Assembly: GCF_044324785.1 (NCBI RefSeq)
Contig: NZ_CP172127.1
Reading direction: 5' to 3' (one strand)
DNA from: Escherichia coli
Lineage (GTDB): Bacteria; Pseudomonadota; Gammaproteobacteria; Enterobacterales; Enterobacteriaceae
Length of the DNA: 64,000 nt
Shown here: positions 56,901 through 59,900 of the stretch, piece by piece
Layout of the letters: every line of letters begins with the position of its first letter
Numbering within the stretch: the stretch's first letter is position 1
Program-made: the position numbers

Positions 56901-59900
56901 AGCGCCTGCCGAACCAAAACCGGTAAAAATGGCAGAGAATAATGCCGTTGTCGAAGCGACGTGGAACGATGTACAACTGGAAGATTCTCTGGGAATGGAA
57001 GTGGGTTATCGACTGATCCCGATGGTCGATTTCCAGCAGGATGGTGAGTTGCTGGGCCGTATACGCAGTATTCGCAAGAAATTTGCCCAGGAGATGGGGT
57101 TTCTGCCGCCGGTGGTGCACATTCGCGACAATATGGATCTGCAACCTGCCCGCTATCGCATTTTGATGAAAGGCGTGGAGATAGGCAGTGGTGATGCTTA
57201 TCCGGGGCGTTGGTTGGCGATTAACCCTGGTACCGCTGCCGGGACGTTACCTGGTGAGGCGACCGTCGATCCGGCATTTGGCCTGAATGCTATCTGGATT
57301 GAAAGTGCGCTTAAAGAACAGGCGCAGATTCAGGGGTACACCGTGGTTGAGGCCAGCACGGTGGTGGCAACGCATCTTAACCACCTCATTAGCCAGCATG
57401 CCGCAGAGCTGTTTGGTCGTCAGGAGGCGCAACAGCTGTTGGATCGCGTCGCCCAAGAGATGCCAAAGCTGACGGAAGATCTCGTTCCTGGCGTCGTCAC
57501 GCTCACCACACTGCATAAAGTGCTGCAAAATCTGCTCGATGAAAAAGTACCGATTCGCGATATGCGCACCATTCTCGAAACGCTGGCGGAACATGCGCCC
57601 ATCCAAAGCGATCCACATGAATTAACCGCCGTCGTGCGCGTGGCGTTGGGACGGGCGATTACCCAGCAGTGGTTTCCTGGCAAAGATGAAGTTCATGTTA
57701 TTGGCCTCGATACACCGCTGGAACGTTTGTTGCTACAGGCGTTGCAGGGCGGGGGCGGACTGGAGCCAGGGCTGGCGGATCGTTTACTGGCGCAAACTCA
57801 GGAAGCGCTATCCCGTCAGGAGATGTTGGGTGCGCCGCCAGTTTTATTGGTGAACCACGCGCTGCGACCATTATTGTCTCGCTTCCTGCGCCGCAGCCTG
57901 CCGCAGTTAGTGGTGCTGTCGAATCTGGAACTGTCTGATAACCGACATATCCGCATGACGGCGACAATTGGCGGTAAATGATGAGAACCTTATTAGCAAT
58001 ATTATTGTTTCCGCTGCTGGTGCAAGCCGCCGGGGAGGGGATGTGGCAGGCAAGTAGTGTCGGAATTACGCTAAATCACCGTGGTGAGTCGATGTCGTCA
58101 GCGCCTCTTTCTACTCGACAACCTGCTGCAGGATTGATGACGCTGGTGGCGTGGCGTTATCAGCTTATCGGCCCGACACCTGCAGGACTGCGGGTTCGCT
58201 TGTGTTCACAATCTCGTTGTGTCGAATTAGATGGGCAGAGCGGAACCACCGTGGCCTTTTCCGGTATAGCGGCAGCAGAACCGTTGCGCTTTATCTGGGA
58301 AGTGCCTGGCGGTGGGCGGTTAATTCCGCCGCTAAAGGTACAACGTAATGAAGTGATTGTGAATTATCGTTAATGATAAAAAAGCCGATGTCTGCCATGA
58401 CATCGGCTTTTGCCGTATAACGCGATTACATACGCTCTACTGTCTCAATACCCAGCGTATCCAGACCCAGTTTCAGCGTCTTCGCCGTCAGTTGTGCCAG
58501 TTTCAGACGGCTGTTACGCACTTCTTCGTTTTCTGCGCTGAGGATCGGGCAGTGCTCGTAGAAACCAGAGAACAGACCGGCCAGATCGTACAGGTAAGCA
58601 CACATTACATGCGGCGTGCCTTCACGGGCAACCACGGTGAGGGTTTCTTCAAACTGCAGCAGGCGAGCTGCCAGTTGCGCTTCACGATCTTCACGGATGA
58701 TAACCGGAGCTGCAGCCAGTTGCTCTTCGTCAATTTCTGCTTTACGGAACACGGACAATACACGCGTGTAAGCATACTGCATGTATGGCGCGGTATTACC
58801 CTCAAACGCCAGCATGTTGTCCCAGTCGAAGATGTAGTCGGTAGTGCGGTTTTTGGAGAGATCTGCATATTTCACCGCACCAATACCAACCGCGTTAGCC
58901 AGTTTTTCCAGCTCGTCGGCTGGCATGTCCGGGTTTTTCTCTGCCACCAGACGGCGTGCGCGTTCCAGGGCTTCATCCAGCAGATCGGCCAGTTTCACCG
59001 TACCGCCAGCACGGGTTTTGAACGGTTTGCCGTCTTTACCCAGCATCATGCCGAACATGTGGTGTTCCAGCGGTACGGATTCCGGTACATAGCCTGCTTT
59101 GCGGACGATAGCCCACGCCTGCATCAGGTGTTGATGCTGACGGGAGTCGATGTAATACAGCACGCGATCGGCATGCAGTGTTTCATAACGATATTTCGCA
59201 CAGGCGATATCAGTGGTGGTGTAGAGATAGCCGCCATCTTTCTTCTGAATGATCACGCCCATCGGTTCGCCTTCCTTGTTTTTGAACTCATCAAGGAATA
59301 CGACGGTCGCGCCTTCGCTTTCTACTGCGAGACCTTTGGCTTTGAGATCTGCCACGATACCCGGCAGCATCGGGTTATAGAGGCTTTCGCCCATCACGTC
59401 ATCACGGGTCAGAGTCACGTTGAGACGATCGTAGGTGATCTGGTTCTGCGTCATGGTGATGTCGACCAGTTTGCGCCACATCTCGCGGAAATATTCGTCA
59501 CCGCTTTGCAGTTTTACCACGTAGTTACGTGCGCGCTCGGCGAACTCTTCATCTTCATCGTAATGCTTTTTCGCATCGCGGTAGAAACCTTCAAGGTCAG
59601 CCAGCTCCATTTCACCGGCGTTTTCCTGCTGCTGCTTTTCCAGCCATGCAATCAGCATACCGAACTGAGTGCCCCAGTCGCCGACGTGGTTTGCGCGAAT
59701 CACTTTGTGACCGAGGAACTCCAGAGTACGCACTGCTGCGTCACCAATAATGGTAGAGCGCAGGTGACCAACGTGCATCTCTTTCGCCACGTTTGGCGCA
59801 GAGTAGTCAACCACAATGGTCTGTTTTTCCGGCGTAGCAACACCGAGACGATCGGACGCCAGCGCCTGCTGAACATGTTCAGCCAGGAATGCCGGATCAA

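What the first reader, a model, noticed from the sequence alone, without database searches (positions are those of the whole stretch)
58374..58425. argS and flhE converge with only 52 bp and a shared terminator, where K-12 has a gene
The flhE stop (58373) and argS stop (58426) are separated by a single bidirectional hairpin. From memory the K-12 reference carries an additional small gene (yecT) between them. If that recollection is right, this strain lacks that insertion and shows the compact arrangement.
Basis: partly seen in the sequence, partly recalled or inferred. Interest (0 to 1): 0.3.

Follow-up and report, generated by a model that had tools for sequence, protein, structure and literature searches.

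The report
Common yecT-less argS–flhE junction
The 52-bp gap with one hairpin between flhE and argS is real, but it is simply the yecT-less form of a two-form site that about one third of sequenced E. coli genomes carry, so it is ordinary.

Summary
flhE ends at 58373 and argS ends at 58426. The 52-bp spacer holds one stable hairpin (58380-58411).

K-12 MG1655 has 784 bp here, carrying yecT (b1877) and also the 14-codon yecV (b4778).

The compact form is not unusual:
- 1,784 of 5,426 complete E. coli genomes have it, including CFT073, type strain ATCC 11775 and strain 042.
- 3,642 genomes have the yecT form. The two counts add up to the whole set.

The two spacers share no clear homology between the two stop codons, so this is a replacement and not a clean insertion.

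Direction of change is inferred, not proven:
- The yecT segment is 39% GC against 53-55% in the flanks.
- The same compact hairpin occurs in E. albertii, which favours compact as the older Escherichia state.
- yecT is also old: it is present in E. whittamii and Escherichia sp. E1V33 with flank-like divergence.
- Most other Enterobacteriaceae carry a 3-kb transporter plus GH88 hydrolase cassette at this position instead.

The hairpin is a canonical intrinsic terminator for argS, with an invariant stem and six U. For flhE it is only marginal (UUUUG here, UGUUG in B2 strains). "Bidirectional" is therefore only partly supported.

This is known, annotated variation of low interest.

The parts
57981..58373 (+). 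flhE coding sequence, the last gene of flhBAE. It ends in three in-frame stop codons, TAA TGA TAA (58371-58379).
   Evidence: ORF. Pfam PF06366 FlhE, E = 1.8e-41. The start at 57981 is set by analogy with the 393-bp PGAP annotation in compact genomes. Codon view.
58374..58425 (.). The 52-bp spacer specific to the compact (yecT-less, yecV-less) allele of the argS-flhE junction.
   Evidence: It is present once per genome in 1,781 of 5,426 complete E. coli genomes and gives no match (E <= 1e-3) in the other 3,645, which the count implies are the yecT-type genomes.
58380..58411 (-). Hairpin with a 13-bp stem and 6-nt loop. On the minus strand it is followed by UUUUUUAU (plus-strand 58383-58376), which makes it the intrinsic terminator of argS. 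On the plus strand the same hairpin is followed by UUUUG (58408-58412), a marginal terminator or pause site for flhBAE transcripts.
   Evidence: Terminator scan hit on the minus strand only. Folding z-scores of -4.9 and -4.5. The stem and the argS-side T6 are invariant in 7 compact sequences including E. albertii, while the flhE-side tail varies. The terminator score is +30 for the argS direction and +6 for the flhE direction (formula recalled from memory).
58426..60159 (-). argS (arginine--tRNA ligase) coding sequence, convergent with flhE.
   Evidence: ORF of 577 aa. The tblastn match to K-12 argS rounds to 100% identity over residues 1-577. Annotated as argS in all matching genomes.

Best explanation
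Window 58374-58425 is the compact allele of a two-allele (dimorphic) junction between the convergent genes flhE and argS in Escherichia.

In this allele the two stop codons are separated by 52 bp containing a single stable hairpin. Read on the argS strand, the hairpin is followed by six U and acts as the Rho-independent terminator of argS. Read on the flhE strand, the same hairpin is followed by only UUUUG. It probably pauses or partly terminates flhBAE transcription, so that the two transcription units do not run far into each other.

The alternative allele, found in K-12, replaces the 52 bp with 784 bp of low-GC DNA. That DNA carries yecT (an LprI/PF07007-domain exported protein of unknown function), the 14-codon yecV, and its own argS terminator.

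The most likely history is as follows:
1. The Enterobacteriaceae ancestor had a transporter plus GH88 cassette between flhE and argS.
2. The Escherichia lineage lost the cassette, giving the compact form.
3. A foreign low-GC yecT segment later replaced the spacer in one lineage.
4. Both forms have persisted since, reshuffled by homologous recombination.

Shown here: the coordinates, the hairpin, the allele frequencies, the distribution in outgroups and the GC contrast. Inferred: termination activity, and the direction and order of the evolutionary events.
For: **Anatomy**

**K-12 comparison**
- In K-12, argS ends at L001:6796. yecV lies at 6838-6882, yecT at 6973-7461 and flhE at 7581-7973, so the interval is 784 bp.
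- Homology with the window stops at the last codon of flhE and 3 nt beyond the argS stop.

**Population counts**
- The 201-bp junction is contiguous in 1,784 of 5,426 genomes.
- The 52-bp spacer itself is found in 1,781 genomes, once each.
- The K-12 interval is found in 3,642 genomes. The sum 1,784 + 3,642 equals 5,426.
- Compact examples are TUM1886, ATCC 11775, CFT073 with a 52-bp gap, and 042 and N3, which are colinear with the window over 20,001 bp.

**Outgroups**
- E. albertii and a divergent Escherichia genome (L003) have the same hairpin and a 52-bp spacer.
- Escherichia sp. E1V33 and E. whittamii have yecT.
- The yecT interval is 94.2% (K-12 vs E1V33) and 90.3% (K-12 vs E. whittamii) identical. 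The flanks are 92-94% identical.

**Foreign character of the yecT segment**
- It is 39.4% GC against 53-55% in the flanks, with sharp edges.
- yecT is moderately derepressed in an hns stpA mutant and activated by BglJ-RcsB (PMC3950696).

**Other genera**
- 61 of 76 non-Escherichia loci have an MFS_2 transporter and a GH88 hydrolase between flhE and argS.

**Terminator**
- The stem and the argS-side T6 are invariant across 7 compact sequences, while the flhE-side tail varies: TTTTG, TGTTG or CTTTG.
- The terminator score is +30 in the argS direction. In the flhE direction it is +6 in the window, -18 in ATCC 11775 and -36 in L003.
Against: - No transcript 3'-end data exist for a compact-allele strain, so termination in either direction is inferred from sequence only.
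- The direction of change is not settled. yecT is as old as the split of E. coli from E. whittamii and E1V33. E. fergusonii, and named genomes of E. marmotae and E. ruysiae, were not among the loci retrieved.
- The identity of L003, which is labelled E. coli but is only 91-93% identical, is unknown.
- No mobile-element signature explains how the 784-bp segment arrived. There are no terminal repeats and no recombinase gene, and no copies on genuine plasmids or phages.
- The two argS terminators share a 15-nt match, ATAAAAAAGCC-GAT (shuffle p about 0.01). Partial homology of the terminators therefore cannot be excluded.
- Genome counts reflect sequencing bias and are not natural frequencies.
Confidence: 0.9

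Rival explanations
1. The compact junction is a secondary deletion. Under this view yecT/yecV was ancestral in Escherichia, and the lineage of this window (B2, D and similar strains) lost it.
For: yecT is present in E. whittamii and Escherichia sp. E1V33 as well as in two thirds of E. coli genomes, with divergence equal to that of the flanks. It is therefore old. The site is clearly prone to loss: four Enterobacter and Lelliottia genomes independently lost the 3-kb cassette.
Against: The 52-bp spacer is not a subsequence of the 784-bp interval. The only match is a 15-nt stretch at p about 0.01, and the spacer gives no match (E <= 1e-3) in any genome beyond the 1,781 compact ones. A simple deletion therefore cannot produce it. 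The same spacer and hairpin are present in E. albertii and L003. The yecT segment has a sharply foreign GC content.
Confidence: 0.25
2. The hairpin is a true bidirectional terminator that efficiently ends both flhBAE and argS transcripts.
For: There is a single symmetric hairpin between convergent genes, with an A-tract on one side and a T-tract on the other. The terminator score in the flhE direction is slightly positive in this window (+5.9). Bidirectional terminators between convergent E. coli genes are widespread (Ju et al. 2019, as summarised in bioRxiv 10.1101/2022.10.23.513370). The Enterobacter argS terminator at the same position also has an A-run and a T-run flanking the hairpin.
Against: The plus-strand tail has only four U followed by GCCG, which is below the scan threshold. 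The tail is not conserved: it is UGUUG in ATCC 11775, Ec394 and CFT073 and CUUUG in L003, with negative scores. The argS-side features, by contrast, are invariant.
Confidence: 0.4
3. The compact junction is an assembly or sequence artefact, or a strain-specific recent deletion.
For: None beyond the fact that the window matches no complete genome at better than about 98.7%.
Against: An identical 52-bp spacer occurs in 682 complete genomes, and near-identical spacers occur in a further 1,099. The same arrangement is annotated in reference strains.
Confidence: 0.01

Closest known systems
E. coli K-12 MG1655 argS-yecV-yecT-flhE interval (b1876, b4778, b1877, b1878)
   Same: The flanking genes, their convergent orientation and the gene ends are the same. 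argS is 98.2% identical at nucleotide level and flhE 95.5%. An argS terminator hairpin followed by TTTTTTAT sits about 20 nt after the argS stop in both.
   Different: K-12 has 784 bp of 39% GC DNA with yecT and yecV where the window has 52 bp. The spacer sequences are unrelated apart from a 15-nt match.
Compact argS|flhE junction annotated in RefSeq E. coli genomes such as CFT073, ATCC 11775, 042 and TUM1886
   Same: The 52-bp spacer and hairpin are the same. The spacer is identical to the window in TUM1886 and ECCNB12-2, and differs at 2-3 positions in the B2 strains.
   Different: The spacer itself is not essentially different. However, the surrounding 20 kb of the window is only 98.5-98.7% identical to the nearest complete genomes.
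Intrinsic (Rho-independent) terminators, and bidirectional terminators of convergent gene pairs (Ju et al. 2019, cited in bioRxiv 10.1101/2022.10.23.513370)
   Same: There is a GC-rich 9-13 bp stem with a short loop. A U6 tract follows on the argS strand, and an A-tract sits on the other side so that the complementary transcript also ends in a hairpin plus U.
   Different: The U-tract for flhE is short and poorly conserved. No 3'-end data exist for this allele. As summarised in that preprint, many SEnd-seq bidirectional terminators do not resemble intrinsic terminators at all.
flhE-(MFS_2 transporter)-(GH88 hydrolase)-argS arrangement of Enterobacter, Citrobacter, Salmonella, Kluyvera and related genera
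   Same: It is the same junction between flhE and convergent argS. A single hairpin flanked by A-runs and T-runs sits next to the argS stop.
   Different: Those genera hold about 3 kb with two sugar-utilisation genes (PF13347, PF07470). All six Escherichia loci retrieved from genome contigs or E. coli genomes at that point lack the cassette.

Membership tests
Rho-independent (intrinsic) terminator, argS direction | Stable GC-rich stem-loop just downstream of the stop codon | tested here: met
   The core stem has 9 bp (13 bp with A-U extension) and lies 18 nt after the argS stop. The core hairpin folds at -15.4 kcal/mol. The z-score is -4.5, and 0 of 200 shuffles fold as well.
Rho-independent (intrinsic) terminator, argS direction | Uninterrupted U-tract immediately 3' of the stem | tested here: met
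   UUUUUUAU follows the stem on the minus strand. It is invariant in 7 compact sequences from E. coli, L003 and E. albertii.
Rho-independent (intrinsic) terminator, argS direction | Transcript 3' ends or termination measured at the site | not testable with these tools
   No transcriptome or in vitro data for a compact-allele strain were available.
Bidirectional terminator shared by a convergent gene pair | One hairpin in the spacer of two convergent genes, flanked by an A-tract and a U-tract so that both transcripts end in hairpin plus U | tested here: inconclusive
   The geometry is met. The flhE-side tail is UUUUG here (score +5.9) but UGUUG or CUUUG in other compact genomes (scores -18 and -36). 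The scan does not call it on the plus strand.
Bidirectional terminator shared by a convergent gene pair | Overlapping 3' ends of both transcripts mapped experimentally | not testable with these tools
   Requires SEnd-seq or Term-seq in a compact-allele strain.
yecT-less (compact) allele of the E. coli argS-flhE junction | No yecT or yecV sequence, and colinearity with other compact genomes across the junction | tested here: met
   tblastn with YecT finds nothing in the window. The junction is contiguous in 1,784 genomes and the spacer is found in 1,781.
Repeated extragenic palindrome (REP/BIME-like) element | Many dispersed copies per genome | tested here: not met
   The spacer occurs once per genome (median 1, maximum 2 places). 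The palindrome occurs once in the 64-kb window. No Rfam family matches the spacer.
Mobile-element insertion (IS, transposon or integrative island) as the origin of the K-12 yecT segment | Terminal inverted repeats or target-site duplication at the segment ends, a recombinase gene, or copies on plasmids or phages | tested here: not met
   No boundary repeats beyond short, chance-level matches. Only yecT and yecV are annotated in the segment. There are no phage hits, and plasmid hits are confined to records that look like mislabelled chromosomal sequence.

The most novel reading that the evidence does not exclude
The compact and yecT/yecV forms may be an ancient presence/absence polymorphism shared across Escherichia species. 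Compact occurs in E. albertii, L003 and E. coli strains of phylogroups B2 and D. The yecT form occurs in E. whittamii, E1V33 and E. coli strains of phylogroups A, B1 and E. Under this reading the polymorphism is maintained by selection rather than by drift plus recombination. The selected trait could be a host-dependent envelope function of YecT, or the different 3'-end interplay between flhBAE and the essential gene argS.
Probability: 0.1. Interest if true: 0.35.

Novelty: already known. Interest (0 to 1): 0.1.

Why it matters
It matters little. yecT and yecV are accessory genes, and K-12 is not the universal template for this junction. About one third of sequenced E. coli, including uropathogenic reference strains and the type strain, have flhE and argS back to back with one shared hairpin. 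This is useful as an annotation or pangenome note, and as a natural pair of alleles for anyone studying termination between convergent genes or the function of YecT. It opens no new question.

Tried and rejected
1. **Homology between the spacers.** I looked for residual homology between the 52-bp spacer and the 784-bp K-12, E1V33 and E. whittamii intervals by local alignment against shuffled controls. The only result is a 15-nt match at the argS terminator (p about 0.01). An apparent resemblance to the K-12 hairpin next to flhE (AAAAAGGCTCGATGTC) did not score as the best match and is not kept in E. whittamii. I therefore dropped the idea that yecT inserted into the loop of the ancestral hairpin.
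2. **Mobile-element signatures at the ends of the yecT segment.** None was found. An 11-nt exact direct repeat, GATAATTCACA, lies at the yecT stop and in the 3' end of flhE. It brackets only 129 bp and is near chance expectation.
3. **Allele-linked haplotypes in the flanks.** The flanks are mosaic. Apart from two scattered sites at 166 and 274 bp from the flhE stop, the fixed differences near the junction lie in flhE's last sense codon and its stop codon. No long linked block exists.
4. **Rfam scan of the window.** Nothing was found in the spacer.
5. **YecT against solved structures, plasmids and phages.** There was no informative relative and no mobile vector.
7. **Phylogroup cross-tabulation.** This is not possible with the tools. 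Only named reference strains were checked, and their phylogroups come from my own knowledge.

Full report
**Observation**

The flhE reading frame ends with TAA at 58371-58373. The argS frame on the minus strand (58426..60159) has its stop codon at 58426-58428. This leaves a spacer of 52 bp, 58374..58425.

The spacer contains one palindrome:
- GCCGATGTC (58384-58392) pairs with GACATCGGC (58399-58407) around the loop TGCCAT.
- Flanking A6 and T4 runs extend the stem to 13 pairs (58380-58411).

As RNA, either strand folds far better than shuffled controls. The energies are -25.7 and -26.4 kcal/mol, the z-scores are -4.9 and -4.5, and 0 of 200 shuffles fold as well. The palindrome is unique in the window, with 0 expected by chance. 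No Rfam family matches the spacer.

**Comparison with K-12**

In MG1655 (NC_000913.3) the annotation reads argS (b1876), yecV (b4778, 45 bp), yecT (b1877, 489 bp), flhE (b1878). There are 784 bp between the argS and flhE stop codons.

Alignment shows that similarity between the window and K-12 stops at the last sense codon of flhE (CGT TAA against CGC TGA). On the other side it stops three bases beyond the argS stop.

Everything in between differs. The window is therefore not K-12 minus an insert; the whole spacer, terminator included, is a different sequence. Local alignment of the 52 bp against the 784 bp finds only ATAAAAAAGCC-GAT, at the corresponding edge of K-12's own argS terminator (p about 0.01 against shuffles). 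tblastn with YecT finds nothing anywhere in the window.

**How common each form is**

| Query | Genomes matched (of 5,426 complete RefSeq E. coli) |
|---|---|
| 201-bp junction, contiguous | 1,784 |
| 52-bp spacer alone | 1,781, once each |
| K-12 784-bp interval | 3,642 (3,554 nearly full length) |

Of the 1,781 spacer matches, 682 are at least 99% identical to the window.

The sum 1,784 + 3,642 equals 5,426, so this is a two-allele site with only rare derivatives. One example is an IS1 inside the yecT interval (H71). Others are genomes that lack the flhE side altogether (H39 and H40).

Compact genomes include CFT073 with a 52-bp gap, the type strain ATCC 11775, TUM1886, and 042 and N3, which are colinear with the window over 20,001 bp. 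yecT genomes include K-12, O157:H7, O55:H7, O111:H8, O103:H2 and KO11FL. From my own knowledge of these strains' phylogroups, compact goes with B2 and D and yecT goes with A, B1 and E. I could not cross-tabulate this for all genomes.

**Which form is older**

One scan of species-representative genomes with FlhE returned 80 loci.

Within Escherichia:
- E. albertii (L006) and a divergent genome labelled E. coli SCPM-O-B-8794 (L003, 91-93% identical to the window in flhA and argS) have the compact form with the same hairpin arms. Their loop is 3 nt longer.
- Their FlhE is one residue longer (…YRQ, stop TGA), so their spacer is also 52 bp.
- Escherichia sp. E1V33 (L004) and E. whittamii (L005) have yecT.
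- Their yecT intervals are 94.2% and 90.3% identical to K-12. This is the same range as flhA (93.3%, 92.2%) and argS (93.8%, 93.9%). yecT has therefore been inherited vertically since before these species split.

The yecT interval is 39.4% GC against 53-55% in argS, flhE and flhA, with sharp edges. yecT is moderately derepressed in an hns stpA mutant and activated by BglJ-RcsB (PMC3950696). Both features are typical of acquired DNA.

Outside Escherichia:
- 61 of 76 loci have a 3-kb cassette between flhE and argS. It encodes an MFS_2 transporter (PF13347) and a GH88 hydrolase (PF07470).
- Six more loci keep GH88 only.
- Four Enterobacter and Lelliottia genomes are independently compact, with their own hairpin.

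The most economical history is cassette in the family ancestor, loss in Escherichia to give the compact form, and later replacement of the spacer by a foreign yecT segment. Both forms then persisted. I put about 0.65 on compact being older than yecT within Escherichia. E. fergusonii, and named E. marmotae and E. ruysiae genomes, were not among the loci retrieved.

The flanks show no long allele-linked haplotype. Near the junction, the fixed differences between five compact and three yecT E. coli genomes lie in flhE's last sense codon and its stop codon, plus two sites at 166 and 274 bp from the stop. The flanks are otherwise mosaic. This points to recombination having moved the alleles between backgrounds.

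No mobile-element signature was found:
- There are no boundary repeats.
- No recombinase gene is annotated in the segment.
- There are no phage copies, and the only plasmid hits are records that look like mislabelled chromosomal sequence.

**What the hairpin does**

On the argS strand the stem is followed by UUUUUUAU. The scan calls this a terminator. The d'Aubenton-Carafa-type score, whose formula I recalled from memory, is +30. The stem and the U6 tract are invariant in seven compact sequences spanning E. coli, L003 and E. albertii.

On the flhE strand the tail is UUUUG followed by CCG. The scan does not call it, and the score is +5.9. In ATCC 11775, Ec394 and CFT073 the tail is UGUUG, and in L003 it is CUUUG, with negative scores.

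I conclude that this is the argS intrinsic terminator. For flhBAE transcripts it serves at best as a weak terminator or pause site. Collision-assisted termination between convergent polymerases, as proposed for E. coli convergent pairs (bioRxiv 10.1101/2022.10.23.513370), could add to it. That is inference; no 3'-end data exist for this allele. In K-12 the flhE-yecT spacer offers no better flhE terminator.

**What is absent**

YecT is a 162-residue protein with an N-terminal signal-like sequence and a PF07007 (LprI) domain (E = 1.1e-17). The PGAP name "lysozyme inhibitor LprI family protein" should be read with care. A study of a Salmonella LprI-domain protein notes that no experiment supports lysozyme inhibition by this domain itself (PMC7933661). 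No solved structure matches YecT by sequence. Strains with the compact allele simply lack yecT and yecV.

**Verdict**

- This is known, annotated accessory-gene variation, so interest is low.

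Noticed in passing
window 1-24000 and 44000-64000: No complete E. coli genome among the 5,426 matches the window at better than 98.4% over 24 kb or 98.7% over 20 kb. The nearest are N3, 042 and CUWW10. The window therefore comes from a poorly sampled, somewhat divergent E. coli lineage.
   Followed up: partly
window 59325-59425 (argS, 900-1000 nt from its stop): This 100-bp bin differs from every comparator by 7-14 mismatches, while neighbouring bins differ by 0-3. It is a local divergent patch, possibly a recombination import or a hypervariable segment.
   Followed up: no
window 58371-58379: flhE ends in three consecutive in-frame stop codons, TAA TGA TAA. In E. albertii and L003 the first of these is a Gln codon (CAG or CAA), so their FlhE is one residue longer and stops at the TGA.
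   Followed up: yes
L007-L082 (for example L025:4647-7383): In most Enterobacteriaceae genera the flhE-argS junction holds a conserved two-gene cassette, an MFS_2 transporter plus a GH88 unsaturated-glycan hydrolase. It is present in 61 of 76 loci and absent from all Escherichia loci examined. It was lost independently in Enterobacter sichuanensis, E. asburiae AEB30, E. vonholyi and Lelliottia nimipressuralis.
   Followed up: partly
window 57981-58373 (flhE) compared with L001 and L002: flhE is much more variable within E. coli than its neighbours. K-12 and TUM1886 are 92.7% identical in flhE, against 97.1% in flhA and 96.8% in argS.
   Followed up: no
window 61473-61780 (+), 48137-48214 (-), 29625-29924 (+): Rfam finds the MicL sRNA overlapping the 3' end of cutC and extending past it, the C0465 RNA, and a cluster of three tRNAs. 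This cluster corresponds to the Gly-Cys-Leu cluster annotated in CFT073.
   Followed up: no
L001:7457-7467 and 7586-7596 (K-12): An exact 11-nt direct repeat, GATAATTCACA, overlaps the yecT stop codon and the 3' end of flhE, 129 bp apart. I estimate about 0.1 such repeats by chance in 1 kb, and it is unexplained.
   Followed up: partly
L086:2201-2400 (approximately; flhA of strain Ec394-330266): Two adjacent 100-bp bins of flhA show 12 and 17 mismatches to the window, against 0-7 elsewhere. This looks like a short imported segment in that strain.
   Followed up: no
PLSDB records CP061244.1, NZ_OL790696.1, NZ_CP114132.1, NZ_CP069927.1: The only close yecT hits in the plasmid collection are three E. 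coli 'plasmid' records of 0.44-4.8 Mb and a 5-kb 'Klebsiella oxytoca' record. They look like chromosomal E. coli sequence filed as plasmids.
   Followed up: no
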